In this document: positions 1,347-48,750 of the stretch, one piece after another
Layout of the letters: every line of letters starts with the position of its first letter
Position numbering within the stretch: the stretch's first letter is position 1
DNA from: a virus
Strand: one strand, 5' to 3'
Virus record (IMG/VR): IMGVR_UViG_3300045988_154458
Location: 1 to 55,402 of that record
DNA length: 55,402 nt
The notes under the pieces: generated by a model
Told to the model about the DNA's origin: nothing
Databases searched by the model: none
Seen by the model: the letters and a program-made list of their open reading frames with translations, nothing else
Program-made: the position numbers and the translations under genes

Positions 1347-1374
1347 TTCATCTCCTTACTTATATGACAATATT

Positions 1375-1403
1375 AATATACCATATTATAAGTTATTAGT
1401 CAA
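1375..1403 (-). promoter_or_regulatory. Sigma-70-type promoter, conserved early family (TTGACT-N17-TATATT with TGn)
   Basis: Minus strand reads ATTGACTAATAACTTATAATATGGTATATT. The -35 is at 1398-1403 and the -10 at 1375-1380, spacer 17. Same architecture as the promoters at 4424, 9679, 9938, 10370 and 49563. Confidence 0.6.
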
Positions 1404-1422
1404 TAAAAATAAAAAAAAAAGA

Positions 1423-1815
1423 TTATTTTTTTAAAAATCTTTCTTTATAATCATTTTTTATTAATAATTTCCCCTTTTTTGATTTCATATTTGAAAATTC
1501 TTTTTCAAAATAACATAATAAATCATTAATATATTTTAAATTTTCAATATCAATTCTATTTTTTATTTTTTCATCAATCATTTCAGAGGTTATTCTCATG
1601 AATATCTCATAATCTTTTGATTCTATTAAATGCAGATAGGGGTGTGACGTAGATCTATTTAATATTGCACCATTCCAAATAGTCATTGGCCCGTTTTCTC
1701 TATTTGGTACTACAAGATGATGATAACTAACATCTTCTTTTTTTAAATAATAACCCATCATATCAATACGTTGTATATTCATTTCACGAATAATCAACTT
1801 AGAAATATTTTTCAT
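1423..1815 (-). CDS. HNH endonuclease
   Basis: SYHHLVVPNRENGPMTIWNGAILNRSTSHPYLH gives H-N-H spacing. ATG 1815 follows an AGGTGA SD. The track ORF extension to 1902 has no SD. Confidence 0.7.
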   Translation of the reverse strand: MKNISKLIIREMNIQRIDMMGYYLKKEDVSYHHLVVPNRENGPMTIWNGAILNRSTSHPYLHLIESKDYEIFMRITSEMIDEKIKNRIDIENLKYINDLLCYFEKEFSNMKSKKGKLLIKNDYKERFLKK

Positions 1816-1873
1816 ACGTTCACCTACACTTATATTTATTATATCATATGTTATAATTATTCGCAAATCAACA

Positions 1874-2059
1874 TTAATTACTAATTTTAAACCGGATAAC
1901 ACAATTACTATTTTGTCTTATTACTAGCTCTCTAGTTTCTAAACTTTTAACATAGTCTGTTATCCATTTCTTATATTGTTCTATATTGCCTTTATCTTCA
2001 TATCCTAGCATTGAACCATTTACTAGGTTTGCTAGTCCTATTAAGTATTTTTCTTTCAT
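1874..2059 (-). CDS. Hypothetical protein
   Basis: Track ORF 1874..2068 (GTG start). ATG 2059 is preceded by GAGGTG with 8-nt spacing. Confidence 0.5.
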   Translation of the reverse strand: MKEKYLIGLANLVNGSMLGYEDKGNIEQYKKWITDYVKSLETRELVIRQNSNCVIRFKISN

Positions 2060-2070
2060 AATTAACACCT

Positions 2071-2289
2071 CTATCTAATACCATAAGTATAATTTGGTTT
2101 AACCATTGCAACCATTTGTTCTTTTAAAACTTTATTCTCTAATTCCAACTTATCAATAACTTCTTTTTGCTTTTGATTTTCTTCTTTCCAATTAACCATT
2201 TCATTAAATAACTCTTTAAATACATCTTTTGGTATTAAATAATGGTCTGTGCCTTGTATATAATACTTGCTATAATCTTCTAATTTCAT
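2071..2289 (-). CDS. Hypothetical coiled-coil protein (contains QKQKEVIDK motif)
   Basis: 72-aa ORF. Carries the motif shared with the KQKEVID family. Abuts the stop of 2290..2436. Confidence 0.55.
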   Translation of the reverse strand: MKLEDYSKYYIQGTDHYLIPKDVFKELFNEMVNWKEENQKQKEVIDKLELENKVLKEQMVAMVKPNYTYGIR

Positions 2290-2436
2290 TTAATCATCAC
2301 TCTCTACTTTCAACACTTCTAACATTTCATTATATTTTTCAAATAAATCTTCCAAATACATACCATAGTTATTAAATGCTGTCTTTTTTGTATAATAAAA
2401 TTCTATTAATTTAAAGCATACTTCTTCTTTATTCAT
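2290..2436 (-). CDS. Small hypothetical protein (48 aa), paralogue of 54931..55107
   Basis: Hand translation MNKEEVCFKLIEFYYTKKTAFNNYGMYLEDLFEKYNEMLEVLKVESDD, below the track cut-off. The 3' end tcatcactctctactttc and the start context attcattactatcac are shared with 54931..55107. Confidence 0.5.
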   Translation of the reverse strand: MNKEEVCFKLIEFYYTKKTAFNNYGMYLEDLFEKYNEMLEVLKVESDD

Positions 2437-2752
2437 TACTATCACTTCCTTGTTCTAGTTCTTGTATTTTATTTAATATAGGTTCTATATCATCATTAAA
2501 TGATAAACAATTCTCCCATTCATTTGAATTATATTTGCTAAAAGTTGATTGTCTTATTTTTATTAAATCTTCTTTTAACTCATTCCAATTATCCTTTAGT
2601 TGTTTGTTCTCTTGCTGTAATTGTTTAATATATTTGTATAATATTTTTTGGTCTTTATATGTAAATTCACTTGAATAATCATCATGTGGTTCTAAACTTG
2701 TCGTTTCTAGATAATTCAATATCATATCTAAATCAGTAATTTCTATATTCAT
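2429..2752 (-). CDS. Hypothetical protein, paralogue of 55100..55399
   Basis: Shares QQENKQLKDNWNELKEDL and the C-terminus IQELEQGSDSNE with 55100..55399. About 43 nt are identical at the 3' end. ATGA overlap with the upstream gene. Confidence 0.6.
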   Translation of the reverse strand: MNIEITDLDMILNYLETTSLEPHDDYSSEFTYKDQKILYKYIKQLQQENKQLKDNWNELKEDLIKIRQSTFSKYNSNEWENCLSFNDDIEPILNKIQELEQGSDSNE

Positions 2753-3042
2753 TCTGACACCTCTTTTAATATATCAATTAATGTCTTACTTAAGTGTGCA
2801 GGAAGATAATAATCTTTTCTTAATTTTCCTTCTACAGTTCTTCCTATAACACATTCTTGTTTATTGTTTTCATAAAATGCTATTGCTTTATCAATCACTT
2901 CTTTTTGTTTTTTATTCTTGCTTTTTAATATTTGAATTTGTTTTTGCAAATCTCTTTTCATTTTTTCATATCCTAATATTCTTCTTCTCCAGTTATCAAC
3001 CTTTCTTTCATATTTAGGATATAAATCATAATTTTTAGACAT
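2749..3042 (-). CDS. Hypothetical coiled-coil protein, KQKEVID-motif family
   Basis: Contains NKKQKEVIDKAI and the C-terminus DILKEVSE. GAGGTGAAATA precedes ATG 3042. Confidence 0.6.
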   Translation of the reverse strand: MSKNYDLYPKYERKVDNWRRRILGYEKMKRDLQKQIQILKSKNKKQKEVIDKAIAFYENNKQECVIGRTVEGKLRKDYYLPAHLSKTLIDILKEVSE

Positions 3043-3257
3043 TATTTCACCTCGTTTAATATATCTAGCATATTCTTTAATATATATCTTAAAGTTGAAT
3101 TGTCATTATGTTCTTTATCTGTTCCATAATAATTTATTATTTTACTGATTTTATCAATTAATTCTTTTTGCTTTTTACATCGTTGTTCTAGTACTTTAAT
3201 TTCATTTATAAGTTTAGTTTCATTTTTTCTAACTTCTTCTATTGTTCTATTATCCAT
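3042..3257 (-). CDS. Hypothetical coiled-coil protein, KQKEVID-motif family
   Basis: Track ORF runs to 3284. ATG 3257 has AGGAG 10 nt upstream and avoids overlap with 3271..3429. Contains CKKQKELIDKI and DILNEVK. Confidence 0.55.
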   Translation of the reverse strand: MDNRTIEEVRKNETKLINEIKVLEQRCKKQKELIDKISKIINYYGTDKEHNDNSTLRYILKNMLDILNEVK

Positions 3258-4185: not shown

Positions 4186-4400
4186 AACACTTCAATAATA
4201 TAATCTTTTTCGTAATTCTTACAACCATACATATCTGTATAATAATCTTTATGTTCAGAAATACTACAATTATATCCTTTCTTTTTTAATTCTAGCAACA
4301 ATAATTTTTCTCCAAATTTATCATATATCTTCGAGTCAATATAACAATTTCGATACTTTTTTAAATTTCTATAAACATAGTCATCTAATTTTATTTTCAT
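4182..4400 (-). CDS. Hypothetical protein
   Basis: Track ORF runs to 4433. ATG 4400 follows AAGGAGAAGATAAAA. First gene after promoter 4424..4452. Confidence 0.55.
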   Translation of the reverse strand: MKIKLDDYVYRNLKKYRNCYIDSKIYDKFGEKLLLLELKKKGYNCSISEHKDYYTDMYGCKNYEKDYIIEVL

Positions 4401-4423
4401 TTTTATCTTCTCCTTACAATAAC

Positions 4424-4452
4424 AATATATCATATTATTATATATTAGTCAA
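4424..4452 (-). promoter_or_regulatory. Sigma-70-type promoter, conserved early family
   Basis: Minus strand reads ATTGACTAATATATAATAATATGATATATT. The -35 is at 4447-4452 and the -10 at 4424-4429, spacer 17. A second ATTAGTCAA copy at 4487-4495 suggests a tandem promoter. Confidence 0.55.
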
Positions 4453-4605
4453 TATATTTTAATAAATTTTATAATTATTTTAATATATTAGTCAAAATTC
4501 TTTCCTTTGCTATTTCATAATATTTTTCATAAATTCTAGTGACATTTGACAAAACATATCTAAACTATTTTCATTGTATAATGCAATCATTATCTCATCT
4601 CCTCT

Positions 4606-6078
4606 TTAATTTGCATATGACGATGCCATACCTTCTTTTATTTTAATATTCGACAAATTATAATAACCATTATTCTTCTTAATCTCCGTACCATATCTAG
4701 GTTTCAAATAATCTTCAATTTCCTTATTTTTAAGACCAATAGGTTTTATACCACTATCACGACACCATATCTGATAATTCGTCTTAAACGATTTAACAGA
4801 CAGTCTTTCTGTAACCAATAAACTATTATCAATATCACAACATTCTTCAACGAACTCTAATAATGTATTATTAACAACAACATATCTATCAAGGCCCATT
4901 TTCATTTTATCACTTTCAACAAACTTAAATCTTCTTTTTCTAAGTTTCAATAAGCTTTCAATGCAAAGTGAAACAATATATTCTCCTTCTTTTAACATCT
5001 TATCAACTAAATAAGGATCTTGCTTATCCTTTTCAACAACATGATTGCAAGGGATAATCATAAATCTTTGATACACCGCCTCTTCTTTCTTACCACTAAA
5101 TTTAGGAAAATCATTTGCCAAAAACCAAACTAAGCCATTAAAGATATATGAAAATGCCCCACGACCTTTAAATTCAATACTAATAGGATCTCCACCAACT
5201 AATTGCTTAAAAATACCCATATCACTAACTGTAGTGTATTGCATATCATTACTACCAACTAATCTCTTATTATATAATTCACTGGTACCAAAACGACTAT
5301 CATTCATCTTACTAAGTTCAATACTACTTGTATATTTAACACCGATTAAATGTGTTAACAACTTTTTTATCTGCGTCTTCCCACAATCTTTAGGGCCAAT
5401 CATTAAAATCGACTTTTTCGTAAGATAACCAGGTATATTCGACATAGCAAGACCCATTGCCTCCAACAAACATTCTCTCATTTCCAAGTCACCATCAACA
5501 AGCTCATTCAAATATTTTTCAAATACAAGTCCTTTTTCGCAATTTTCAAGAGGGATATAATTTATAGGAATCTGAATCGTAAACATTTTATCGGGTGTAT
5601 GCTCACTAAGTGTCATTGTATCTAAATTTAAGATACCATTTTTAAAATTAATACAATTCGCATCACTATTCAAATAATCATTATCAACATAAAAACTATC
5701 ATCCATAAGTAACAACTTATAAATTTCATCAATATCTTTCGACTTTTGAATGAGTTCAGGAATCCATTTTCTAATCATACCTTTAAACTCATTTTCAGTC
5801 ACATTCTGATAATAACCATTCTTATACATATATAATGTTATATTACCCAAATTTGAATCCTTAACGAACTTAAAATGCTCACTTTCTTTTATAATCTGCA
5901 CCAATTTAGGACAAACAACCTCAATATCATATCTATATTCAAATTCATTTTCATTTTTAATACTTATCGCACTCTTCGGTAATAAATATTGCAAGTTATT
6001 ACTATTGATAAAAGGTATGCTATCAAGTGGCATCATTGTCTTTTCTAACTCAATCGGAATATTTTTCTGTTTACCCAT
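4606..6078 (-). CDS. SF3 replicative helicase, D5 / P4-alpha (phage-plasmid primase C-terminal) family
   Basis: 490 aa. Walker A is MIGPKDCGKTQ. The segment before it, VFEKYLNELVDGDLEMRECLLEAMG, is typical of the D5_N/P4 primase-helicase family. No primase domain is present; a separate PrimPol is at 49715..50527. Confidence 0.8.
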   Translation of the reverse strand: MGKQKNIPIELEKTMMPLDSIPFINSNNLQYLLPKSAISIKNENEFEYRYDIEVVCPKLVQIIKESEHFKFVKDSNLGNITLYMYKNGYYQNVTENEFKGMIRKWIPELIQKSKDIDEIYKLLLMDDSFYVDNDYLNSDANCINFKNGILNLDTMTLSEHTPDKMFTIQIPINYIPLENCEKGLVFEKYLNELVDGDLEMRECLLEAMGLAMSNIPGYLTKKSILMIGPKDCGKTQIKKLLTHLIGVKYTSSIELSKMNDSRFGTSELYNKRLVGSNDMQYTTVSDMGIFKQLVGGDPISIEFKGRGAFSYIFNGLVWFLANDFPKFSGKKEEAVYQRFMIIPCNHVVEKDKQDPYLVDKMLKEGEYIVSLCIESLLKLRKRRFKFVESDKMKMGLDRYVVVNNTLLEFVEECCDIDNSLLVTERLSVKSFKTNYQIWCRDSGIKPIGLKNKEIEDYLKPRYGTEIKKNNGYYNLSNIKIKEGMASSYAN

Positions 6079-12373: not shown

Positions 12374-12448
12374 GCACTTGTAGTTTAAAGGCAAAATAAC
12401 AGACTCCAAATCTGTAAGATCAGGGTTCAAATCCTTGCAAGTGTGCCA
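12374..12448 (+). tRNA. trnW: tRNA-Trp (anticodon CCA)
   Basis: Hand fold: acceptor GCACTTG/CAAGTGT (G1-U72), D stem GTTT/AAAT, anticodon arm ACAGA-CTCCAAA-TCTGT, variable loop AAGAT, T arm CAGGG-TTCAAAT-CCTTG, discriminator G, encoded CCA. Confidence 0.8.
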
Positions 12449-37468: not shown

Positions 37469-37545
37469 GGGTAGATACTCAAGCGGATTAAGAGGTTGGT
37501 CTGCAACACCAATATTCATGAGTTCGAATCTCATTCTGCCCTCCA
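37469..37545 (+). tRNA. trnC: tRNA-Cys (anticodon GCA)
   Basis: Hand fold: acceptor GGGTAGA/TCTGCCC (one G-U), D arm CTC(A)-AGCGGATTA-(A)GAG, anticodon arm TTGGT-CTGCAAC-ACCAA, variable loop TATTC, T arm ATGAG-TTCGAAT-CTCAT, discriminator T, encoded CCA. Confidence 0.85.
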
Positions 37546-40957: not shown

Positions 40958-42043
40958 TTATTTCTCCTTACTTTTTTTATTCTTAGTTAATTTATATGTT
41001 ATTGATTCTTCACAATATTTATTGTACAATGTTGGATTATCTTCTGCAAATCTTTTACTATTAAATTTCATACTAACGCTACCATTTAATTTATAAGTGT
41101 CATAAGACATCTTTGTTTCACCATCTTTTAATAAATTAATCATTTTATCTTTGATAGCGTCTTGTATTGTTTTTAATTCTTTTTCTTTACTTTCAATACC
41201 CGTTTCATTTTTTATTTTAATTATATCTTGTTCTAATAATTCGGCACTTTTACATAATTCATCTAAACTATTGTCATTTGATGGATTACTAGTTCTTAAT
41301 ATATCAAGATATTCTTTATCCAATTTTTCATCAAATTCTGGTGAAATGCCTGTCTCTATATATTTTTCCCACCATTCTTCGCAATATTTTATTGCGTCAT
41401 CAAATGTTATCATATCGCCATTTGGCATTTCTATCAACACATCTTTTATTTTTTTAACAACCATTTTTGTATTTGTTTCGTTTGGTTCAAACATTTCTGG
41501 ATGATTATAATCATCATCTTGTAAAAAAGCACATATAAATAGTACTCTATCCAATTTTTTTAAATACGAATATTCACAACCTTGTAATAAATACTCAATC
41601 GGAACTTGATTGTTCTCCCAAAGATGTGGCTTTGAACTTGTTTTACATTCAACAATCATTGTTAATGTTTTCAAATCCTCTTTTGTTGCGACAGCATCTA
41701 TTATACCACCAAATATATTACTATCTTCTATAAAATTATTCCATTTATATTTATCTATATTATTACCATAATATTCTTCTATACTCATTACATTTGGGAA
41801 TCTATTTCTCACAAAATCAATTAATTTAGGTTCTATTGCTTTTCCAGCAAGAGTATATTTAGAATCTTCAAAAGGAAGTTTAACAAGTTTTGTTATTTCA
41901 CACCATGCACCGAAAGGTGATTGATATTTATTTAAACCAAGTACACTTGCAACACGATGTCCTGTAATTCTTAATCGTTGTTTAGGTGATTCGGGAAGAA
42001 TGATATTTTTACCATTCTCTCCATATTGCCATTCTTTAGCCAT
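40958..42043 (-). CDS. YqaJ/lambda-Exo-like PD-(D/E)XK recombination exonuclease
   Basis: GGIIDAV...MIVECKTS gives D...E.K spacing. ATG 42043 follows GAGGTGATAATA; the track ORF runs to 42082. Confidence 0.65.
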   Translation of the reverse strand: MAKEWQYGENGKNIILPESPKQRLRITGHRVASVLGLNKYQSPFGAWCEITKLVKLPFEDSKYTLAGKAIEPKLIDFVRNRFPNVMSIEEYYGNNIDKYKWNNFIEDSNIFGGIIDAVATKEDLKTLTMIVECKTSSKPHLWENNQVPIEYLLQGCEYSYLKKLDRVLFICAFLQDDDYNHPEMFEPNETNTKMVVKKIKDVLIEMPNGDMITFDDAIKYCEEWWEKYIETGISPEFDEKLDKEYLDILRTSNPSNDNSLDELCKSAELLEQDIIKIKNETGIESKEKELKTIQDAIKDKMINLLKDGETKMSYDTYKLNGSVSMKFNSKRFAEDNPTLYNKYCEESITYKLTKNKKSKEK

Positions 42044-42254
42044 TATTATCACCTCTACTATCATACCATGTTTTAAATTCATTAGAATTGAAAATATCGT
42101 TTATATTGCCATAATTAATGATTTTATTAGTCTTTTCATCAATTTTTAATAAATCACAAACATCTACTTCTTTTTTTATTGATTTCAATTCCCACCCAGT
42201 TTCTTCTATAAATTGATTAACTAGATGTGTCATCATCACATCATTACCAATCAT
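42036..42254 (-). CDS. Hypothetical protein
   Basis: Track ORF runs to 42266 (TTG). ATG 42254 lies directly after the upstream stop. Confidence 0.45.
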   Translation of the reverse strand: MIGNDVMMTHLVNQFIEETGWELKSIKKEVDVCDLLKIDEKTNKIINYGNINDIFNSNEFKTWYDSRGDNNG

Positions 42255-42255
42255 A

Positions 42256-43971
42256 TTATAATCCAACCTTTTCCATTTTATTTTTAACTTTAAGATCTAT
42301 TTCCATTAAATCAACTGATGTACATTTACCACTCATTATTTTATCAAGTGTCTTTGTAGCCCATTCATTATCGTTTAATTTCTCTCTAACTTTCATAATA
42401 TTTTCACAAATATTTTTTATATCTTCTTCATCAGAATCTTCATGTTGTTCTTGTTTTACAACTTCTTTTTTTATCTCTGCTTTCTTTTGTTCTGGAATAT
42501 ATACAGGAACTTTTGGAAGTTCACTTTTCTCAGTTTCTTCTGGAACTAAAGTTTCGTCATCACCATTTTTTGGTGTAAAGTTTTTATAAAACCATGTTCT
42601 AAATGCCATTGTTGATGCCCCTGACACAGCTTTGTCCATTGTATCACTACCTTGACCTATTGTAGTATATTTTTTTACTACACCAGTATCTATATCAGTA
42701 AATGATGCAGTACATTTTACTGTAGCTAAATGTATAGGAGGTCTACCACTAGGCTTTATACAATCCTTATCAAATGAAATAACATCATTAACATCAAATG
42801 CAAAATCTAAACCAACTTTTATAGATTCTTCTTGAACTGCATCGTAGATTTGATTAATACTATAATACTCACCTCCACCTAAATTGGATGGCAATTCTTT
42901 ATCAAGAATGAATCCCCTTTTTCTTATATTTTTTCTAAATTCATTTAGTTTTTTTGATAATTTTGCATAAGCAGTTTCTTCCATATTATCATCTCCTTTT
43001 TTCGACTCTTTAATTTTATTAACTAATTCTTCATTTTGTGACATAGATTGTTGTAATCTTGTTGCTAATTCAAATTCACTATTTTCTTTTTCTTTCAACT
43101 TATCTTCTAATTCTTGTTTAGTCATGTTTACCTCATCTCCTTTTACACTATCTATATTATCATATTGTACTTTATTAGTCAATGCTTTTTTACGTTCTTT
43201 TATTATTTTTATCAAATCTGCTTTTTTGGTTTTCTTCTCAATATCTATATTAAGTTCCTTTGCTAAATCAAGAAGTTCTTCTTTTTTATATTTCTCTAGC
43301 GTTCTGCCGCCAATAAATTTAATATATTTTTCATTAGCAAAGTCAATATACCATTGTTTATTTATATCATTTATTGTACATTCATTTCCATTATCAACAA
43401 TTGGATCGGTAGGACAATTAGCAAGTGAATCTCTTCTTCCATCTGGTTTTACTTTAATTATAGTTCCACGTGGAACATTACCTGCATAAATTCTATTATT
43501 TCTTTGAAGTTCTATATCACCATCTGGTGATTCTTGGACACATTTTTCATAAGTCGATCCTAAATGTGATATAATTTGAAATCTAAATATATCATTACAT
43601 TTATTTATTGTTTCTTCAATTGGAATATCAAATAACAATTTTTTTAGAAGTGCTTCACTTACGATACTCATTGAATTACTTTTTAAACTTTTTTTATAAG
43701 AATATTTAAATTTCTTTTCTTCTTTATTCCATTTGAACTTATGCTCTCCACGAGTTAATTCACCCCCTTTATAATGCACTTCATAATTATTATTACCAGT
43801 TTGAACTATTTCTGCGTAATTATTTACGTCTCGCATTACAATTTTTACAATTTTATCTTCTTCCAATTCAAGTCCAGTTAATTTTTCCCAATTATGTAAT
43901 ACATCATGAGCTTGTTCTTTATATTCTTTTTCAATTGTGTACATCACGGCATCTGTGTTTGCTGATACCAT
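42256..43971 (-). CDS. Family-B DNA polymerase C-terminal part (motif C region + thumb) fused in frame, via an HeH/SAP-like linker, to an ERF-family single-strand annealing protein
   Basis: The N-terminus MVSANTDAVMY aligns with PolB motif C (YxDTDS). LEKYKKEELLDLAKELNIDIEKKTKKADLIKII is the HeH motif. From M330 (ATG 42984, SD AAGGAG 8 nt upstream), AYAKLSKKLNEF...YYSINQIYDAV...DKAVSGASTMAFRTWF resembles P22 Erf. The frame stays open upstream to 44139. Confidence 0.6.
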   Translation of the reverse strand: MVSANTDAVMYTIEKEYKEQAHDVLHNWEKLTGLELEEDKIVKIVMRDVNNYAEIVQTGNNNYEVHYKGGELTRGEHKFKWNKEEKKFKYSYKKSLKSNSMSIVSEALLKKLLFDIPIEETINKCNDIFRFQIISHLGSTYEKCVQESPDGDIELQRNNRIYAGNVPRGTIIKVKPDGRRDSLANCPTDPIVDNGNECTINDINKQWYIDFANEKYIKFIGGRTLEKYKKEELLDLAKELNIDIEKKTKKADLIKIIKERKKALTNKVQYDNIDSVKGDEVNMTKQELEDKLKEKENSEFELATRLQQSMSQNEELVNKIKESKKGDDNMEETAYAKLSKKLNEFRKNIRKRGFILDKELPSNLGGGEYYSINQIYDAVQEESIKVGLDFAFDVNDVISFDKDCIKPSGRPPIHLATVKCTASFTDIDTGVVKKYTTIGQGSDTMDKAVSGASTMAFRTWFYKNFTPKNGDDETLVPEETEKSELPKVPVYIPEQKKAEIKKEVVKQEQHEDSDEEDIKNICENIMKVREKLNDNEWATKTLDKIMSGKCTSVDLMEIDLKVKNKMEKVGL

Positions 43972-44096
43972 TTCAAGGGTTGGTATTTCTTTTAAATCAT
44001 AAATAAGTTGTAGAATAAAACATTGCGCTGTAGTGCATATACTAAATCCTTGTAAGTTGTCGTATAAAGCATTGAAACTAGCTCTTAAAGTTCCAG

Positions 44097-44324
44097 TTAA
44101 GTATACGCATTTAAAGGTAACTTTAAACCTAGTTTTAAATCATCGTTTGTAAGACTAAGAGGTTTAAGAAATTCATCAGGTAATTCACCATGTTTTGCTT
44201 TCATTCTCATTGAAAGTAAATCAGTATAAGCTTGTTTATCTTTTTGATTTCTACTTGAATAACCATATAATCTGACTAGGTTAGGATATAGTGAACCTAC
44301 ATCCCAGTTCTCTAAAACACGCAT
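44097..44324 (-). CDS. Family-B DNA polymerase fragment (motif A and start of motif B)
   Basis: WDVGSLYPNL matches DxxSLYPS (motif A). KLPLNAYT followed by a stop is a truncated K...N[SA].YG (motif B). The sequence continues in the -1 frame as ...TGTLRASFNALYDNLQGFSICTTAQ. Confidence 0.65.
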   Translation of the reverse strand: MRVLENWDVGSLYPNLVRLYGYSSRNQKDKQAYTDLLSMRMKAKHGELPDEFLKPLSLTNDDLKLGLKLPLNAYT

Positions 44325-44963
44325 TTATTCATCACCTTCTTTCTTATGGAATTTCCATTTAAAACCATTTAATAACTTATTATGTTTACAAGCATATGAA
44401 AGACTATGATAAGGTAAATTTAGTTCTTTTTCAGCGAGATGCATAGATTCATACGTTTTTATAAAAATATTGTTTTCGTCATAGCAATCAACGGGTTTTG
44501 ATTTATGATGTTTTAAACCGATATTATACTTAAAAGGTGTATAATGCCTATTTTTCTTTATACAGTCTTGCATATTATCTGAATGTGTTCCCACTCTTAA
44601 ATTACAAAGCCTATTATCACAAATGTTTTCAGTAACATCTATATCATGTAATATTTCTTCATTTTTATGAGCATTTAAAAAAATTTCTCCCATTAAACGA
44701 GATACCGTGTAATTTTTTCTTTGTTTATTATTTTTATCAGTTAATTTTATCATGTAATAACTGTGGGTATTTTTCCAAGGCTTTAATATTTTAATACAAT
44801 CTTGTTTTTTATTATATCTTAATGTCTTTATTCTACTATAATTAGAAATATACATATAATTACAAAAGGATATTTTTAACCAATATTCATTTGGTAAATC
44901 TTCAATATTATACCACCTATCGTCATCTGGTGTAATAAATATTTGTTCACATTTTACTAGCAT
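44325..44963 (-). CDS. HNH homing endonuclease (NUMOD4/HNH_3 type with C-terminal DNA-binding repeat)
   Basis: HDIDVTENICDNRLCNLRVGTHSDNM is the HNH/N motif. The N-terminus W..I....YW.S..G.I is NUMOD4-like. C-terminus KPVDCYDENNIFIKTYESMHLAEKELNL. The gene sits inside the polymerase gene. Confidence 0.8.
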   Translation of the reverse strand: MLVKCEQIFITPDDDRWYNIEDLPNEYWLKISFCNYMYISNYSRIKTLRYNKKQDCIKILKPWKNTHSYYMIKLTDKNNKQRKNYTVSRLMGEIFLNAHKNEEILHDIDVTENICDNRLCNLRVGTHSDNMQDCIKKNRHYTPFKYNIGLKHHKSKPVDCYDENNIFIKTYESMHLAEKELNLPYHSLSYACKHNKLLNGFKWKFHKKEGDE

Positions 44964-44976
44964 TTTAAATCATCAC

Positions 44977-45252
44977 CTATGTATCTAAGTTATCTTTTTC
45001 TTCTTCACCAAGAACCCAACGAAGTGTACCTAACACACCATTCCAAAAACCACACTCCCAATTATCAAAACCTTTTTTAACTTCTGGATATTCTTTTTCA
45101 ACTCTTTTTATGGATTTTAATCTTCCTTTTTCAATGTTAGGTATGTCACATGGATGACTTCTCATAAACCATACTTTGTCAAAAGCTTCATCCATATATT
45201 TCTTTATTTCTTTTTCTGTTCTTATCTTTTTATTTCCCATTATATAATCCAT
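44977..45252 (-). CDS. Hypothetical protein inserted in the polymerase gap
   Basis: Track ORF runs to 45333 and overlaps the pol exo fragment. Starts at 45252 or 45240 follow AAGGAG. Trp-rich C-terminus FDNWECGFWNGVLGTLRWVLGEEE. Confidence 0.45.
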   Translation of the reverse strand: MDYIMGNKKIRTEKEIKKYMDEAFDKVWFMRSHPCDIPNIEKGRLKSIKRVEKEYPEVKKGFDNWECGFWNGVLGTLRWVLGEEEKDNLDT

Positions 45253-45265
45253 CTCCTTCATATTT

Positions 45266-46129
45266 TTAATCGCAATATAATACTTCGTTTTCTCCATACA
45301 CAAATGTATTTTCCTTCGCACCATGTAATCCACCGTAACCCAATTGTATTAAGCAATCATCTATTTTAAAACTCGGTGCTTCAATATTATAGTTTAAATC
45401 ATTATGTGCAATAATATCATCGAAATAATCTAATACACTTTGTGGTATCTTTGATTTATCAATAACATCTGGATAAACATATGCAAAATTGTCATCATGT
45501 TCTTTCCTCTTAGCTCCAAGTAATACTGCTGTCAAATTAGCATCAGTCAAACTAAGTGCATATTCTTCATCAATATTTCCAAGCCTTGCAATAATATACT
45601 TTGATTTAAATCTAGTCATTAGCATATCAAATATTGGAAATAATGCTTCAACATCACAAGTACAATAATATAGAACTTCTTCATATTGTTGTTTATTCCA
45701 TTTGTCAGGTAAATCGAAAGGAACTGTAGTTTCTGTAATATTCATACATAAATTTCCTTCTAGTTCCTTTAATGATTTCCTAGGAATAATGCAATTAATC
45801 AAATCTATTTGTGTTGGTAGTTTTGCATATCCTGTATCAATATCCCAAGCGTTGCCACCGTTAACTATATAATCTGCTACTTCTTTTATTTCCTCAGGTG
45901 TATAGTTATTTAAGCAACATTTTAATATCCATTTATCGAATCCATTGTTATTATATCCCATCAATATTGGATTATATTCATCAATGAAGTTTTGATAATC
46001 TTCTGGCAATGCGTTATGAAAAACTACTTTTTGTTTTGTACGATAATTTATAAAGACAAATAATGTATCATGTGCGAATGTTTCGCAGTCGTATCCCCAA
46101 ATTCTATCTAATAACGAATCAAAACTCAT
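45266..46129 (-). CDS. Family-B DNA polymerase N-terminal fragment (3'-5' exonuclease domain)
   Basis: Exo I is YDCETF (DxE). Exo II is NNNGFDKWIL (N...FD). Exo III is YYCTCDVEAL (Y...D). The fragment ends ...GYGGLHGAKENTFVYGENEVLYCD then a stop. Confidence 0.7.
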   Translation of the reverse strand: MSFDSLLDRIWGYDCETFAHDTLFVFINYRTKQKVVFHNALPEDYQNFIDEYNPILMGYNNNGFDKWILKCCLNNYTPEEIKEVADYIVNGGNAWDIDTGYAKLPTQIDLINCIIPRKSLKELEGNLCMNITETTVPFDLPDKWNKQQYEEVLYYCTCDVEALFPIFDMLMTRFKSKYIIARLGNIDEEYALSLTDANLTAVLLGAKRKEHDDNFAYVYPDVIDKSKIPQSVLDYFDDIIAHNDLNYNIEAPSFKIDDCLIQLGYGGLHGAKENTFVYGENEVLYCD

Positions 46130-46293
46130 TGTTTGTCCTCATTATTGTCTATATTATTTAAGAATTCCTTATGCATCTCATAATTTTTTTCTGCTTGTTT
46201 TTTTGCTGAAATACCAGACCAAATTAGAATTACTAAAAAACAAGATATAAATCCTAATACAAAATAGAATACACTAGCAGGTATCACAACCAT
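46126..46293 (-). CDS. Small membrane protein (55 aa)
   Basis: Hand translation MVVIPASVFYFVLGFISCFLVILIWSGISAKKQAEKNYEMHKEFLNNIDNNEDKQ. ATGA overlap with the pol gene. Confidence 0.45.
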   Translation of the reverse strand: MVVIPASVFYFVLGFISCFLVILIWSGISAKKQAEKNYEMHKEFLNNIDNNEDKQ

Positions 46294-46294
46294 A

Positions 46295-46762
46295 TTATTC
46301 ACCCTCTTTCACTATCTCAACATCATAACCAAGTTCTTTACATATTTCAGATACTGTCATTTTCTTAGGTTCTTTAGGTCTTGAAAATACCTCAATATAT
46401 TCAACTGGTCTACTTACTTTTATAATATCTGATTCACGATTGTTTGAACTATAGTGCATCATATCATCATTAAGATCACTAATACGATATAAACAATTAC
46501 CATAAGTACTTGATGTATCATAAAAATAATTATTAACATATATCAATTTATCACCATTCTTCAATGTAACAATATCACCATTTTTTAGATCATTTTTTGT
46601 GAATGAGTGAATAAAATTAAAGTAATCACAAGATAAACCAACATACATATCCCCATTATCAGCTAATATATCACAACTGTTATCAGACACGCGAACTACA
46701 ATACCTCTCCAATCTTTTATTATTTTATCATCTACCTTATCTCCTATTTTAAATTTTTCCAT
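46295..46762 (-). CDS. Hypothetical protein
   Basis: 155-aa ORF. AAGGAGAATAAATAAGT precedes the ATG. Confidence 0.6.
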   Translation of the reverse strand: MEKFKIGDKVDDKIIKDWRGIVVRVSDNSCDILADNGDMYVGLSCDYFNFIHSFTKNDLKNGDIVTLKNGDKLIYVNNYFYDTSSTYGNCLYRISDLNDDMMHYSSNNRESDIIKVSRPVEYIEVFSRPKEPKKMTVSEICKELGYDVEIVKEGE

Positions 46763-46764
46763 AC

Positions 46765-46920
46765 TTATTTATTCTCCTTTATATACGTTCTTCCCTTAAT
46801 TATTGTATTTTTTTTATTATTATATTCAGGTTCTTTGGACACCCAAAACATTTTTGTTTCTTTACTTCTTTGTTTATAATATTTTTGTTTTTCTTTATAA
46901 TTTTTAAATTGTTTTTCCAT
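46765..46920 (-). CDS. Small basic protein (51 aa)
   Basis: Hand translation MEKQFKNYKEKQKYYKQRSKETKMFWVSKEPEYNNKKNTIIKGRTYIKENK. AAGGAGAAATAAAT precedes the ATG. Confidence 0.4.
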   Translation of the reverse strand: MEKQFKNYKEKQKYYKQRSKETKMFWVSKEPEYNNKKNTIIKGRTYIKENK

Positions 46921-47113
46921 ATTTATTTCTCCTTATATTTAGTTATAATAATCATCATATTTGTTATACATGCCATAAACATATTCTTCAAATTCATCAG
47001 TATCATACTTATTACTATCAACAAACAATATGATATTAGATTCAAAATATTTAATAGCTGCTTTCAATTTATCTGAACAAATCCTTATTCTTATATATTT
47101 TCAAGGCGTGTCA

Positions 47114-47335
47114 TCATTGGGCCTTGTTCAAAAAATATACAGTTTTTTGAACAAAACTAAATTTTTCAGCATTATCAATAATTGTTAATAATTTTGTATC
47201 TTTAATATATTCTATTTTTATAAATCTGCCATTCATCCCAGTCGCATAATCCTCGTCAATATAAACAACATCATCTAATTTTTCGTTATTATAATAAATA
47301 TCAAAATCATATAAATTTTTCATAAAATATCCCAT
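47114..47335 (-). CDS. Hypothetical protein
   Basis: 73-aa ORF. Alternative ATG at 47323 overlaps the upstream stop (ATGA). Confidence 0.5.
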   Translation of the reverse strand: MGYFMKNLYDFDIYYNNEKLDDVVYIDEDYATGMNGRFIKIEYIKDTKLLTIIDNAEKFSFVQKTVYFLNKAQ

Positions 47336-48315
47336 CCTTCTTTTTTATATACACTTTTTCTTTTTGCGGTGAATCTATCAAGCATACCAACATTATCAAC
47401 CAAATCATATACTTTTGCTAATGTTTTACCTTCACTAGGTCTTTGACATCTACCAATACTTTGAATGACAAGTCGTTCATCTTTCACAGGCGTAGCCATT
47501 ATCAAATATTCTAATTGTGGAATATCAAGACCTTCTGCTACTAATGAATAACTAGCAAACAATACATTATATTTATTATCTTTAAAATCAGCAATAGATT
47601 GTTCCCTAATAGCTTTTTTTGTTTTGCCATCAATATATACTGAATTTGGAGTTTTTTCACTAAGATAATGCAATTGGTCGACTCTTTCTGAAATAACTAT
47701 CGTAGGCTTATCTAAGCCATGTAAGATAGATAATATTTGTTGATTTCTTTCTTCGTCTTGTGATATATCTGTTATTAATTTTGTAAACATTATTCTACCA
47801 GTTCTATCATACACATCTTTATCCATTACTGAATAATTAGTTTTTACAAAAGTTATTCTAGCTGGCACTTGAAACATATTACTTGGTACTTCAACAACTG
47901 GTTTACCTTCATAATAACCTATTAATTTATCTTTTGTATCATTCTTTTTTAATTCATAAATAACATTCCCTATTAATTTTGTAGTAGTTTTTTCAAGACC
48001 ATCTGAGCGATGCAATGTTGCAGTAATACCCATCTTATATCTCGCTGAAAAATAATTTATACATTTTTCAAACATCATTACACTTTCAGCATTACTTGCT
48101 AAATGGTGACATTCATCCATAATTAATAAACCGAACTCATCTTGTTTTATTTCTTCTTTATCTATAATATTTGATAAAGTTTGAACTGTTGCAAAAACTA
48201 TATCACCAGATGAATCACATTTACCATCTGTTATAATACTAGTAGAACAGTTTAAATTATTTTCGCATCGTTCTTTTGCTTGGTTAAGTAAATCTTTGGT
48301 ATGTGTCAACCACAA
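47320..48315 (-). CDS. SF2 (DEAD/DEAH, res-subunit-like) helicase, part downstream of an in-frame TAA
   Basis: DECH (motif II), TAT (motif III) and QSIGRCQR (motif VI). The frame is open up to 48372, where it reads GTGKTQIG directly after the TAA at 48373-48375. The nearest start is TTG 48315. Confidence 0.7.
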   Translation of the reverse strand: MWLTHTKDLLNQAKERCENNLNCSTSIITDGKCDSSGDIVFATVQTLSNIIDKEEIKQDEFGLLIMDECHHLASNAESVMMFEKCINYFSARYKMGITATLHRSDGLEKTTTKLIGNVIYELKKNDTKDKLIGYYEGKPVVEVPSNMFQVPARITFVKTNYSVMDKDVYDRTGRIMFTKLITDISQDEERNQQILSILHGLDKPTIVISERVDQLHYLSEKTPNSVYIDGKTKKAIREQSIADFKDNKYNVLFASYSLVAEGLDIPQLEYLIMATPVKDERLVIQSIGRCQRPSEGKTLAKVYDLVDNVGMLDRFTAKRKSVYKKEGWDIL

Positions 48316-48372
48316 TGTGTGTTGTTTTAAAGTTGCAGCACACTCTAAACCAATTTGTGTTTTACCAGTACC

Positions 48373-48750
48373 TTAACCAGCTGGTAACACAAAGATTCCA
48401 TTAACATATCTTTTTAAAGCATTTGTACATGGTTTTTGATATTCTCTAAGTTGTATATTACTTGTTATGTTTCTAGTAACTGTTATTGAATAATCTTTAT
48501 AATCATCTTTAATAGGATGTAATTTCCATATATTATCAAAACAACCTATAGGCAAATAAATATTATTATCATATATATCATATAATGATATATTTTTTGG
48601 AGTTTTACCAATCCAAAAACCTAATTTTTGTTTTTTAATATAATCTGGATTTTTAAAAGTTAATTCATTCTTACAATAATCTAATATGTCTTTTGTTGGA
48701 TCTTTTATTTCAATTATATTACTAAGTGTTATCAGCATTTCCATCACCAC
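48373..48750 (-). CDS. SF2 helicase N-terminal fragment ending at an in-frame TAA inside Walker A
   Basis: Ends ...NGIFVLPAG then TAA. It is in the same frame as 47320..48372. Confidence 0.65.
   Translation of the reverse strand: MVMEMLITLSNIIEIKDPTKDILDYCKNELTFKNPDYIKKQKLGFWIGKTPKNISLYDIYDNNIYLPIGCFDNIWKLHPIKDDYKDYSITVTRNITSNIQLREYQKPCTNALKRYVNGIFVLPAG

What the first reader, a model, noticed from the sequence alone, without database searches (positions are those of the whole stretch)
42256..46129. Family-B DNA polymerase gene in at least three pieces: HNH homing endonuclease insertion, an extra frameshift, NTD instead of DTD, and in-frame fusion to ERF
Seen in sequence:
- 45266..46129 carries Exo I (DCE), Exo II (NNNGFD) and Exo III (YYCTCD), then stops.
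- An insert of about 940 bp follows. It holds a 118-aa-track ORF and an HNH/NUMOD-type endonuclease (44325..44963).
- The polymerase resumes immediately after the HNH stop, with an ATG and WDVGSLYPNL (motif A), at 44097..44324.
- That piece stops inside motif B (KLPLNAYT then a stop). The expected continuation TGTLRASFNALYDNLQGFSICTTAQ...LEMVSANTDAVMY is in the -1 frame, which is open from 44139.
- Motif C reads NTD rather than DTD.
- After an HeH/SAP-like motif, the same ORF runs without a stop into an ERF-family annealase. That domain has its own strong SD + ATG at 42984.

Established knowledge: HNH endonucleases (for example I-HmuI) invade phage DNA polymerase genes, either within group I introns or as free-standing elements that split genes.

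Inference: this is either a mobile-element-split but functional polymerase, needing trans-assembly or splicing plus a recoding event, or a decaying polymerase gene.
Basis: partly seen in the sequence, partly recalled or inferred. Interest (0 to 1): 0.7.

Follow-up and report, generated by a model that had tools for sequence, protein, structure and literature searches.

The report
Split phage polymerase needing a ribosome hop
A gut-phage DNA polymerase gene is cut in two by a mobile nuclease gene and carries a 5-base, stop-containing insert in a catalytic motif; comparison with about 65 related sequences indicates that ribosomes hop over it, a rare decoding trick known mainly from one phage T4 gene.

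Summary
The pieces match one phage PolB profile (phrog_1252) in order: positions 53-349, 351-409 and 412-653.

The "extra frameshift" is a 5-nt insertion, TAACT, inside motif B: tat ACT TAA CT GGA. It is identical in four independent assemblies. A +5 re-pairing of peptidyl-tRNA-Thr from ACU to the next ACU, over the UAA, restores the family motif KLPLNAYTGTLRA exactly.

Related phages carry at least 12 different 2-16-nt elements at three fixed codon positions in motifs A and B. Nearly all start with a stop codon or CGG, the rarest codon here. Most end with a codon synonymous to the take-off codon. They occur only in split genes and mostly beside an HNH endonuclease gene. Both flanks stay under purifying selection (dN/dS 0.04-0.3).

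The window's helicase has a similar 6-nt element in Walker A (GGT TAA GGT).

No group I intron was found. NTD in motif C is family-wide, including a cultured Enterococcus phage. The fusion to an ERF-like annealase is conserved.

Best reading: a homing-endonuclease cassette plus a short translational bypass, analogous to T4 mobA/gene 60. No experiment supports this yet.

The parts
45266..46129 (-). PolB gene 1: N-terminal and 3'-5' exonuclease part (287 aa; Exo I DCE, Exo II NNNGFD, Exo III YYCTCD). It ends about 7 codons before motif A.
   Evidence: phrog_1252 profile positions 53-349, E=1.4e-48. It aligns to residues 1-282 of the intact homologue P0004.
44977..45240 (-). 87-aa ORF of unknown function, first gene of the insert (SD AAGGAGA plus ATG 45240).
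   Evidence: No Pfam or PHROG family. A homologous ORF sits beside a different HNH in L059 (100 aa), and a 58-aa remnant is present in L019.
44325..44963 (-). Free-standing HNH/NUMOD4-type homing endonuclease gene (212 aa), not inside an intron.
   Evidence: phrog_59 HNH endonuclease, E=7e-16. Pfam HNH_3 and NUMOD4 hits are sub-threshold. No Rfam intron. Relatives carry 13 or more different HNH alleles at the same site.
44100..44324 (-). PolB gene 2, first coding segment: SD AAGGTGA, ATG 44324, motif A DVGSLYPN (44280..44303) and the first half of motif B (KLPLNAYT). It ends with the take-off codon ACT at 44100..44102.
   Evidence: phrog_1252 profile positions 351-409. Sequence. dN/dS 0.1-0.3 against other lineages that carry an element.
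44095..44099 (-). 5-nt coding gap TAACT: zero-frame stop TAA (44097..44099) and landing codon ACT (44095..44097). Decoding resumes at GGA 44092..44094.
   Evidence: Intact homologues read KLPLNAYTG[TAC]LRA with no gap. The same element has different synonymous flanks in L026, L033, L059 and L065. Variants TAATA and TGAAACG occupy the same position.
42256..44094 (-). PolB gene 2, second coding segment: rest of motif B, motif C SANTDAV (NTD at 43951..43959), thumb, HeH-like linker (about 43177..43296), ERF-like annealase core (about 42568..42984) and a conserved C-terminal tail. Stop TAA at 42256..42258.
   Evidence: phrog_1252 profile positions 412-653, E=1.4e-48. Single ORFs of 910-1037 aa in relatives. 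AlphaFold2 model plus Foldseek: RAD52 N-terminal domain and viral ERF/SSAP proteins.
47320..48750 (-). SF2 helicase gene interrupted in Walker A by a 6-nt in-frame element: GGT (48376..48378) TAA (48373..48375) GGT (48370..48372), then ACT GGT AAA ACA. It reads VLPAG*GTGKT.
   Evidence: Intact relatives read P[AC]GTGK[ST]. The same element is in L001, L006, L010, L017 and the distant L063, with synonymous differences in the flanks.
40958..42082 (-). YqaJ/RecE-like exonuclease gene downstream, the usual partner of a single-strand annealing protein.
   Evidence: Pfam PF09588, E=2.5e-7. phrog_434 RecE-like exonuclease, E=2e-30.

Best explanation
The polymerase is functional and is made from two genes plus one recoding event.

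1. Shown: a mobile cassette (an 87-aa ORF plus a free-standing HNH homing endonuclease) sits at a recurrent insertion hot spot about 7 codons before motif A. It splits the family-B polymerase into an exonuclease gene and a polymerase-annealase gene. Each gene has its own SD and ATG.

2. Shown: the second gene carries a 5-nt insertion, TAACT, inside motif B.

3. Inferred: ribosomes reach ACU (Thr) and find UAA in the A site. The peptidyl-tRNA-Thr un-pairs and re-pairs with the identical ACU five bases downstream. Decoding resumes at GGA. The product reads KLPLNAYTGTLRA, exactly as in uninterrupted homologues.

4. Inferred: the window's helicase is made the same way, across GGU UAA GGU in Walker A.

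5. Inferred by analogy with T4 mobA/gene 60: the short inserts break the DNA target of a homing endonuclease inside an invariant motif. This protects the genome from cleavage without changing the protein.

6. Inferred from precedent: the two polymerase polypeptides assemble non-covalently, as other split polymerases do.
For: - The lesion is real. The DNA at the site is identical in four independent assemblies: L001, L009/L010 and L016.
- It is conserved. ACT/ACG TAACT GGN occurs in L026, L033, L059 and L065, with synonymous differences on both sides: TAT/TAC, ACT/ACG, and GGA/GGT/GGC. So NAYT is read in the upstream frame up to the Thr codon, and the downstream frame starts at the Gly codon.
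- Independent elements share one logic.
  - After Thr in motif B: TGAAACG (ACT to ACG) and TAATA.
  - After KLPL in motif B: TG (CUC UGA to CUG) and CCCA.
  - In motif A, as CTN CGG ... CTN TAT: inserts of 9, 10, 12 and 16 nt, plus CGGTA; separately, an in-frame TAA inserted after the Tyr codon (TAT TAA CCA, L050).
  - In the helicase: GGT TAA GGT.
- Landing codon: it is synonymous with the take-off codon in at least 7 of 11 elements, against 3-6% expected (P about 7e-7).
- A-site codon: it is a stop or CGG in 7 of 8 frame-breaking elements, against 10.5% expected (P about 1e-6). CGG is the rarest codon in the window, 2 of 11,850.
- Selection: dN/dS is 0.04-0.3 with dS of 0.5 to more than 2 on both sides, between lineages that all carry an element. 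An intact pair gives the same range.
- Lesion positions: every frame break or in-frame stop in about 65 loci lies at P0004 residues about 265-302 or about 346-366. None lies elsewhere. None of 18 unsplit genes has one.
- Link to endonucleases: 12 of 14 endonuclease alleles at the split site come with an element. Among split genes without an endonuclease the figure is 3 of 14 (Fisher P=0.002), and among all other lineages 3 of 32 (P=9e-7).
- Cassette tract: the elements lie inside a tract of low identity (48-80%) centred on the insertion site. The rest of the gene is 96-100% identical.
- Precedent: in T4 mobA/gene 60 the bypass insert blocks self-nicking, the A site holds a stop or a hungry codon, take-off and landing codons match, and the endonuclease or the bypass can later be lost (PMC5009743; bioRxiv 10.1101/2022.08.31.505936).
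Against: - There is no protein, transcript or ribosome data. Hopping is inferred only from comparative sequence analysis.
- In E. coli, short hops without stimulators run at a few percent or less (my recollection of the older literature; the review read describes such synthetic, non-programmed hops only as low-efficiency). I found no significant stimulatory RNA structure (z -0.2 to -1.4).
- Four of the twelve element types lack a cognate landing codon: TAATA, CCCA, CGGTA and the in-frame TAA of L050. They would need two-out-of-three pairing or would add a residue.
- The immunity role is untested, and the pattern is not clean. Two endonuclease alleles have no element (L012/L018 and L041). The helicase element sits in the allele that lacks the neighbouring HNH.
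- The element may spread horizontally. If so, part of the divergence used for dN/dS could predate its arrival.
- The host, and therefore its tRNA set and release factors, is unknown.
Confidence: 0.66

Rival explanations
1. The element is decoded, but by an ordinary +2, -1 or +1 shift or by stop read-through rather than a matched-codon hop. The polymerase would then carry one or two extra residues in motif B.
For: Some related elements have no cognate landing codon: CCCA in L002-L005, CGGTA in L006/L007/L066, TAATA in L014/L031 and the in-frame TAA in L050. A simple slip there would add Pro or Arg.
Against: In the window the ACU-to-ACU re-pairing is perfect and gives the exact family motif. Any other route inserts residues between the invariant K, N, Y and G of motif B. 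Most elements of different lengths (2-16 nt) end with a synonymous codon directly before the resume codon.
Confidence: 0.12
2. The polymerase, and the helicase, are pseudogenes. The phage replicates with host or helper enzymes, and the ERF part is made from the internal ATG at 42984.
For: Two lesions sit in catalytic motifs. Sequence-only models in Pfam do not recognise the protein. A reasonable SD and ATG precede the annealase domain.
Against: - dN/dS is 0.04-0.3 on both sides of the lesion, across saturated synonymous divergence.
- In an AT-rich genome, no second lesion appears in about 25 loci that carry an element. Lesions occupy only three codon positions.
- The 43 codons between the lesion and the next Met are conserved.
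- The internal ATG is absent from many relatives.
- The alleles are widespread: clusters P0054 and P0065 were seen on 19 and 37 contigs.
Confidence: 0.08
3. Three separate polypeptides: translation re-initiates after the stop and the fragments assemble.
For: Split family-B polymerases do exist, and the first split here clearly yields two proteins.
Against: There is no ATG, GTG or TTG between 44139 and the Met at 43971. The break falls inside the motif B helix. In the helicase it falls inside the P-loop, where a break cannot be tolerated.
Confidence: 0.04
4. Canonical -1 programmed frameshift at the in-frame heptamer U_UUA_AAU (CCT TTA AAT), 12 nt upstream of the stop.
For: The heptamer is present in the window, in the correct phase.
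Against: - The product would read KLPLNCVYLTG, which destroys motif B.
- The heptamer is absent from L026, L059, L014 and L065, which carry the same element.
- Synonymous variation shows that NAYT is read in the zero frame.
Confidence: 0.03
5. The HNH-containing insert is a group I intron or an intein that is removed, or the frame break is a sequencing error.
For: HNH genes in phage polymerase genes are often intron-borne, for example I-HmuI.
Against: - Rfam finds no match at E<=1 over 41500..47000.
- ORFs fill 903 of the 941 insert bases.
- Stop codons rule out an intein.
- The flanking ORFs have their own stop, SD and start.
- Four independent assemblies have identical DNA at the break.
Confidence: 0.02

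Closest known systems
Phage T4 mobA / gene 60 mobile cassette (HNH homing endonuclease plus a 50-nt translational bypass in the topoisomerase large-subunit gene)
   Same: - A free-standing HNH gene splits an essential replication gene into two ORFs.
- A non-coding insert lies a short way downstream, at an invariant codon.
- The insert starts with a stop or a very rare codon in the A site and ends with a landing codon matching the take-off codon.
- Relatives show every decay stage: unsplit; split with endonuclease and bypass; endonuclease lost but bypass kept; bypass lost but split kept; endonuclease replaced by another family.
   Different: - The target genes differ: PolB and an SF2 helicase, not topoisomerase.
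- The gaps are 2-16 nt rather than 20-50 nt.
- I found no significant take-off hairpin.
- There are many unrelated element sequences at three sites, and up to two per gene.
- The HNH genes are NUMOD4/I-HmuI-like or phrog_374. Homology to MobA was not tested.
- No experiment exists.
Synthetic 'stop-hops' and +2/+5/+6 hops in E. coli (Weiss, Dunn, Atkins and Gesteland 1987, as cited in PMC5009743)
   Same: Matched codons flank a stop, so 9 nt encode one amino acid. That is the helicase arrangement, GGU UAA GGU. The +5 geometry matches the polymerase element.
   Different: Those were engineered, low-efficiency events. The 2016 review states that no natural in-frame stop-hop was known. Here the elements are natural, conserved and sit in essential genes.
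'byp' elements of Magnusiomyces capitatus mitochondria (81 short bypassed inserts)
   Same: Many short inserts lie in conserved coding sequence. [quoted passage not shown] An unused or rare codon occupies the A site.
   Different: Byps are 27-55 nt (my recollection; the review read says only 'blocks of nucleotides'). They occur in a mitochondrion with relaxed decoding and are not linked to homing endonucleases.
Split family-B polymerases: gp43A/B of some T4-like Aeromonas phages and the two-gene PolB of Methanothermobacter (from my own knowledge)
   Same: A PolB is divided into two separately translated polypeptides, associated with an inserted mobile gene in the phage case.
   Different: The split point differs (my recollection), and I know of no recoding element described in them.
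PolB of Enterococcus siphophages (IME-EFm5, SANTOR1 and others; phrog_1252)
   Same: About 30% identity over residues 10-626. Same motifs: DVGSLYPN, KLPLNxxYG and NTD.
   Different: Those genes are single and uninterrupted. They have no annealase fusion, no HNH and no coding gap.

Membership tests
Family-B DNA polymerase (phage phrog_1252 clade) | Exo I, II and III plus motifs A (DxxSLYP), B (KxxxNxxYG) and C (xTD) in order in one protein; match to a family profile | tested here: met
   The three pieces map in order onto phrog_1252 profile positions 53-653. Motifs were read directly. Identity is 57-63% to intact 950-976-aa homologues. Pfam PolB models do not hit.
Family-B DNA polymerase (phage phrog_1252 clade) | Canonical DTD in motif C | tested here: not met
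   NTD at 43951..43959. NTD is invariant in this clade, including the cultured phage IME-EFm5. It is a clade trait, not a lesion.
Group I intron-encoded homing endonuclease (I-HmuI type) | A ribozyme core flanks the endonuclease ORF, and exons join in frame after splicing | tested here: not met
   No Rfam family at E<=1. ORFs fill 903 of the 941 insert bases. The upstream piece has its own stop, and the downstream piece has its own SD and ATG.
Free-standing HNH homing endonuclease | HNH/NUMOD domains in an ORF that lies between, or splits, conserved genes and is present or absent among close relatives | tested here: met
   phrog_59, E=7e-16. Homologous alleles hit NUMOD4, HNH_3 and I-HmuI_NUMOD above the Pfam cut-offs. 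Close relatives differ in presence, absence or allele at the same site, with a tract of low identity around it. Nuclease activity and homing were not tested.
Programmed translational bypassing (gene 60 type) | Two ORF segments that together encode one conserved protein, separated by a non-coding gap | tested here: met
   Removing TAACT gives KLPLNAYTGTLRA, as in the intact homologues.
Programmed translational bypassing (gene 60 type) | [quoted passage not shown] | tested here: met
   Polymerase: ACT TAA CT, with landing ACT. Helicase: GGT TAA GGT. The pattern recurs across element types well above chance.
Programmed translational bypassing (gene 60 type) | Stimulators: a nascent-peptide signal, a take-off stem-loop, or an SD in the gap | tested here: inconclusive
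   Predicted hairpins place both sites in loops, but they are not better than shuffled sequences (z -0.2 to -1.4). A nascent-peptide effect cannot be tested here.
Programmed translational bypassing (gene 60 type) | A single polypeptide spanning the gap is actually produced | not testable with these tools
   This needs mass spectrometry, a reporter assay or ribosome profiling.
MobA-type endonuclease-plus-bypass mobile cassette | The insert disrupts the endonuclease's own recognition or nicking site | not testable with these tools
   Only indirect support. Elements co-occur with endonuclease alleles (12 of 14 against 3 of 32) and lie inside the divergent tract around the cassette.
ERF family of single-strand annealing proteins | Match to the ERF sequence model (Pfam PF04404 or an ERF PHROG) | tested here: not met
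   No Pfam hit even at E<=10. No ERF PHROG hit. A family profile found nothing among PDB sequences.
ERF family of single-strand annealing proteins | Rad52-like annealase fold, and a neighbouring recombination exonuclease | tested here: met
   AlphaFold2 model with mean pLDDT 72. Foldseek top PDB hits are the human RAD52 N-terminal domain (probability 0.94-1.0, E=1e-3). 49 BFVD hits at E<=1e-3 are mostly annotated ERF or SSAP (best 1.5e-7). A YqaJ/RecE-like exonuclease gene lies directly downstream.
-1 programmed ribosomal frameshift | Conserved X_XXY_YYZ heptamer at the frame junction | tested here: not met
   U_UUA_AAU is present in the window only. It is absent from L026, L059, L014 and L065, and the product would break motif B.

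The most novel reading that the evidence does not exclude
These uncultivated gut and rumen phages of about 55 kb use a whole repertoire of natural short-range ribosomal hops, +2 to +16 nt. The repertoire includes true in-frame stop-hops and two hops within one gene. The hops read through small inserts that homing-endonuclease cassettes place in, or select for in, the invariant DNA of polymerase motifs A and B and of the helicase Walker A motif. Translational bypassing would then be a general, repeatedly evolved way for selfish nuclease genes and their targets to coexist, not a T4 curiosity.
Probability: 0.55. Interest if true: 0.9.

Novelty: new variant of a known kind. Interest (0 to 1): 0.8.

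Why it matters
- Programmed translational bypassing in bacteria and phages rests essentially on one case, T4 gene 60 and its homologues, all in topoisomerase genes.
- The 2016 recoding review states that no natural in-frame stop-hop is known (PMC5009743).
- This family would supply a dozen minimal, independently evolved elements of 2-16 nt. They lie in two other essential genes, and natural intact controls sit beside them.
- Such small elements are well suited to defining the minimal requirements for take-off and landing.
- The family would also generalise the idea that homing endonucleases can invade invariant coding sequence by pairing a target-breaking insert with recoding.
- Gene callers split these genes into 'fragments'. 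Polymerases and helicases of this kind are therefore probably mis-annotated as pseudogenes in viromes.

Tried and rejected
- Group I intron: Rfam with permissive filters over 41500..47000 found nothing.
- Pfam on all pieces: no significant family, so the family assignment rests on PHROGs and homologues.
- blastn of the region against GenBank phages: no match. tblastn finds only relatives at about 30% identity.
- Sequencing error: rejected by independent assemblies.
- -1 frameshift at U_UUA_AAU: rejected because it is not conserved and would destroy the motif.
- Re-initiation: rejected because no start codon lies before 43971.
- Stimulatory RNA structure: not significant.
- ERF by sequence models and by a PDB sequence profile: negative. 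Only the fold search was positive.
- Window-wide scan for 'codon-stop-same codon' junctions: only the polymerase and helicase sites lack a nearby start codon. The candidate at 21138 is an ordinary gene boundary.
- Host: a GTDB scan gave only two MAG contigs of phage size, one binned to Candidatus Gastranaerophilales. This is weak evidence.
- Names for relatives: none on record.
- Literature: four full-text searches found no description of bypass elements in a polymerase or helicase. The library lacks most subscription journals.

Full report
**1.

- The window is an AT-rich (about 27% GC) phage-like sequence.
- On the minus strand, searches confirm every coordinate in the finding.
- The exonuclease piece (45266..46129, 287 aa) carries DCE, NNNGFD and YYCTCD.
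- A 941-nt insert follows. It holds an 87-aa ORF (ATG 45240 behind AAGGAGA; the longer 118-aa track only adds upstream codons) and a 212-aa ORF (44325..44963).
- A 75-codon piece starts at ATG 44324 behind AAGGTGA. It contains DVGSLYPN and stops at TAA 44097..44099, after KLPLNAYT.
- The continuation GTLRASFNALYDNLQGFSICTTAQ...SANTDAV lies in another frame and runs unbroken to 42256.
- Pfam recognises none of the polymerase pieces.
- PHROG 1252 'DNA polymerase' matches the three pieces in order and without gaps: profile positions 53-349, 351-409 and 412-653 (E=1e-48, 4e-8, 1e-48).
- The 212-aa ORF is an HNH endonuclease (phrog_59, E=7e-16).

**2. Relatives show what the intact gene looks like**

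- I searched 5.8 billion proteins with the concatenated pieces. This returned uninterrupted proteins of 910-1037 aa that cover the whole query at 49-63% identity.
- Two conclusions follow. The fusion of polymerase to the C-terminal domain is a conserved single ORF. The intact motif B reads KLPLNAYTG[TAC]LRA.
- Motif C is NTD in all of them.
- NTD is also present in the cultured Enterococcus phage IME-EFm5 (IIQSNTDAHYY), whose polymerase is about 30% identical. NTD is therefore a clade trait, not decay.
- I fetched 66 related loci from Logan, IMG/VR, metagenomes and GTDB. I mapped the intact homologue P0004 onto the 64 loci then in hand and onto L065 and L066 separately.

**3. The first break is a two-gene split at an insertion hot spot**

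- Eighteen loci have an unsplit gene.
- All the others are split at P0004 residues about 282-286, just before motif A.
- The gap varies from a few bases (a stop, an SD and a start) to 2.1 kb.
- Cargo found in the gap:
  - at least 13 different HNH alleles of two families: NUMOD4/HNH_3/I-HmuI-like, and phrog_374;
  - a C5-cytosine methylase plus an HNH;
  - a PAPS-reductase-like ORF;
  - remnants of these genes.
- Rfam finds no intron at E<=1, and the insert leaves no room for a ribozyme. This is a free-standing homing endonuclease cassette.
- Between otherwise 96-100% identical genomes, identity drops to 48-80% over the last 250 nt or so of the exonuclease gene and the first 450-550 nt of the polymerase gene. 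That is the signature of cassette-linked exchange of flanking sequence.

**4. The second break is a 5-nt insertion, it is real, and it is conserved**

- The DNA reads AAT GCG TAT ACT TAA CT GGA ACT TTA AGA. Removing TAACT (44095..44099) restores the intact motif.
- The DNA at the site is identical in four independent assemblies: L001, L009/L010 and L016.
- The same element occurs in lineages only about 58-70% identical at protein level: L026, L033, L059 and L065, the last on a 57.5-kb contig binned to Candidatus Gastranaerophilales.
- Those copies have synonymous differences immediately on both sides: TAT/TAC, ACT/ACG, and GGA/GGT/GGC.
- So the upstream frame is read up to the Thr codon, and the downstream frame is read from the Gly codon.

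**5. A family of such elements**

| Site | Element (take-off, insert, next codon) | Loci | Shift |
|---|---|---|---|
| Motif B, after Thr | ACT/ACG TAACT GGN | window, L001, L009, L010, L016, L026, L033, L059, L065 | +5 |
| Motif B, after Thr | ACT TGAAACG GGT | L049 | +7, ACT to ACG |
| Motif B, after Thr | ACG TAATA GGA | L014, L031 | +5, landing ATA |
| Motif B, after KLPL | CTC TG AAT | L019, L038, L048, L055 | +2, CUC UGA to CUG |
| Motif B, after KLPL | CTC CCCA AAC | L002-L005 | needs +1 |
| Motif A, after SL | CTG CGG TGA CTT TAT | L052 | +9 |
| Motif A, after SL | CTC CGGATCC CTT TAT | L037 | +10 |
| Motif A, after SL | CTT CGG TGA GGA/GAA CTA TAT | L038, L048 | +12 |
| Motif A, after SL | CTC CGGTGGAAAATGA CTA TAT | L055 | +16 |
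| Motif A, after SL | CTT CGGTA TAT | L006, L007, L066 | +5, landing GTA |
| Motif A, after SLY | TAT TAA CCA | L050 | +3, in frame |

- L038, L048 and L055 each carry two elements in one gene.
- Nearly every element begins with a stop codon or with CGG. CGG is the rarest codon in the window's ORFs, 2 of 11,850.
- Most elements end with a codon synonymous to the take-off codon, placed directly before the codon that continues the conserved motif.
- Against base composition, synonymous landing in at least 7 of 11 elements has P about 7e-7.
- A stop or CGG in the A site in 7 of 8 frame-breaking elements has P about 1e-6.

**6. The same thing in the helicase of this window**

- The SF2 helicase is called as two ORFs: 48373..48750, and 47320 upward.
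- The junction reads GTG TTA CCA GCT GGT TAA GGT ACT GGT AAA ACA, that is VLPAG*GTGKT.
- Intact relatives read P[AC]GTGK[ST].
- This is a 6-nt in-frame insert inside Walker A. Identical GGT codons flank a UAA, which is the classical 'stop-hop' geometry.
- The element recurs in L001, L006, L010 and L017. It also recurs in the distant L063, with synonymous changes in the flanks.
- Read-through would put two extra residues into the P-loop. Only a hop gives a functional motif.
- Alleles without the element have an HNH gene immediately upstream and a diverged 5' part.

**7. The genes are not decaying**

- Between lineages that all carry an element, dN/dS is 0.04-0.3 on both sides of the motif B site. 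dS runs from 0.5 to saturation. An intact pair gives the same range.
- Across the loci mapped, every frame break or internal stop lies at P0004 residues about 265-302 or 346-366. None lies elsewhere, and none occurs in an unsplit gene.
- No start codon lies between 44139 and the Met at 43971, yet those 43 codons are conserved.
- The truncated gene calls from such alleles are common: 19 and 37 contigs for two clusters.

**8. Mechanism**

- The simplest reading of ACU UAA CU GGA is a +5 hop.
  - With UAA in the A site, peptidyl-tRNA-Thr leaves ACU.
  - It re-pairs with the identical ACU five bases on.
  - GGA is decoded next.
- A -1 slip at the in-frame U_UUA_AAU is excluded. That heptamer is not conserved, and the product would wreck motif B.
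- I found no significant hairpin, so efficiency is unknown.
- Elements co-occur with endonuclease alleles: 12 of 14, against 3 of 14 split genes without an endonuclease (Fisher P=0.002), and against 3 of 32 for all other lineages (P=9e-7).
- They lie inside the cassette-linked divergent tract.
- The range of states among relatives parallels the T4 MobA element: unsplit; split with endonuclease and element; endonuclease lost but element kept; element lost but split kept; endonuclease family swapped.
- In T4, the 50-nt bypass insert blocks self-nicking by MobA (PMC5009743; bioRxiv 10.1101/2022.08.31.505936).
- I therefore infer that the inserts protect the genome from a homing endonuclease without altering the protein.
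- That step is the weakest.
  - Two endonuclease alleles lack an element.
  - The helicase element sits in the allele without the neighbouring HNH, which suggests resistance to an invader rather than self-immunity.

**9. The C-terminal domain**

- No ERF sequence model matches.
- An AlphaFold2 model (mean pLDDT 72) matches the human RAD52 N-terminal domain (probability up to 1.0, E=1e-3).
- It also matches 49 viral proteins at E<=1e-3, mostly annotated ERF or single-strand annealing protein (best 1.5e-7).
- A YqaJ/RecE-like exonuclease gene follows.
- It is an ERF-like annealase by fold and by gene context.
- The SD and ATG at 42984 exist, but distant relatives have no Met there. The fusion is the conserved form.

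**10. Novelty**

- Four full-text searches found bypass cassettes only in topoisomerase genes, plus a candidate in Streptomyces phage terminases. None was in a polymerase or helicase.
- The 2016 review says no natural in-frame stop-hop is known.
- This is a new variant of a known kind.
- All of it is comparative inference. A single peptide, LPLNAYTGTLR, would settle it.

Noticed in passing
window 48367..48378 (helicase gene 47320..48750, minus strand): A 6-nt in-frame insert in Walker A, GGT TAA GGT ACT GGT AAA ACA (VLPAG*GTGKT). It is a natural 'stop-hop' candidate in a second essential gene. It is conserved in L001, L006, L010, L017 and the distant L063.
   Followed up: partly
L002 1199..1855 and 1818..3248; also L003, L004, L008, L009, L012, L018, L019: Helicase alleles without the stop-hop. 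In L002-L004 and L008, gene calls show a 218-aa NUMOD4/HNH gene overlapping the helicase start; the upstream gene was not examined in L009, L012, L018 or L019. The first 230 codons or so are strongly diverged (compared for L002). Helicase and polymerase alleles assort independently: L009 has the window's polymerase allele but this helicase allele.
   Followed up: partly
L038 about 4520..4700; L048 about 1335..1510; L055 about 4350..4520: Two coding gaps in one polymerase gene: a 12- or 16-nt 'CGG...CTA' element in motif A, plus the 2-nt CTC TG AAT element in motif B.
   Followed up: partly
L049 2374..4500; L013 3931..4776 and L020; L027 and L042 4167..4481: The polymerase split site also holds other cargo. 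L049 has a C5-cytosine DNA methylase (Pfam E=2e-58), a 106-aa ORF and an HNH. Others have a PAPS-reductase-like ORF of 281 aa, or a 104-aa remnant of it.
   Followed up: partly
window 44977..45240: An 87-aa ORF with no family match travels with the HNH. It has a homologue next to a different HNH in L059 (100 aa) and a 58-aa remnant in L019. It may be an accessory gene of the cassette.
   Followed up: partly
window 42256..42567 (C-terminal tail of the polymerase-annealase protein): After the annealase core come a low-confidence linker with a conserved PKVPVYIPEQKK stretch, an acidic run, and a well-predicted helical end domain (pLDDT above 80). All are conserved across the family. Function unknown.
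   Followed up: no
P0063, P0084, P0018 (relatives): Some relatives have an extra in-frame insertion of about 60-77 aa, with a repetitive, coiled-coil-looking sequence, in the thumb after YEKCVQE. The window lacks it.
   Followed up: no
L065 (CALUPN010000001.1, 57.5 kb) and L066 (CAVIDW010000007.1, 54.5 kb): The only GTDB genome hits are phage-sized contigs binned into MAGs. One is labelled Candidatus Gastranaerophilales. This is a weak hint to the host. Other loci come from human gut metagenomes (several ENA contigs are so labelled); a rumen origin for some JGI contigs is my assumption and was not checked.
   Followed up: partly
L021 about 4490..4510: In some relatives with a minimal split, the exonuclease ORF overlaps the polymerase ATG at GGT TTA AAA TGC. 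This contains a U_UUA_AAA heptamer in phase. A -1 slip there would fuse the two ORFs.
   Followed up: no
window 12374..12448 and 37469..37545: Two tRNA genes on the plus strand: Trp (CCA) and Cys (GCA). Neither reads Thr, Gly or Leu codons, and neither is a suppressor.
   Followed up: no
window 44111..44117 (CCT TTA AAT): A canonical slippery heptamer, U_UUA_AAU, lies in phase 12 nt before the stop. It is not conserved in relatives that carry the same element, so it is probably coincidental.
   Followed up: yes
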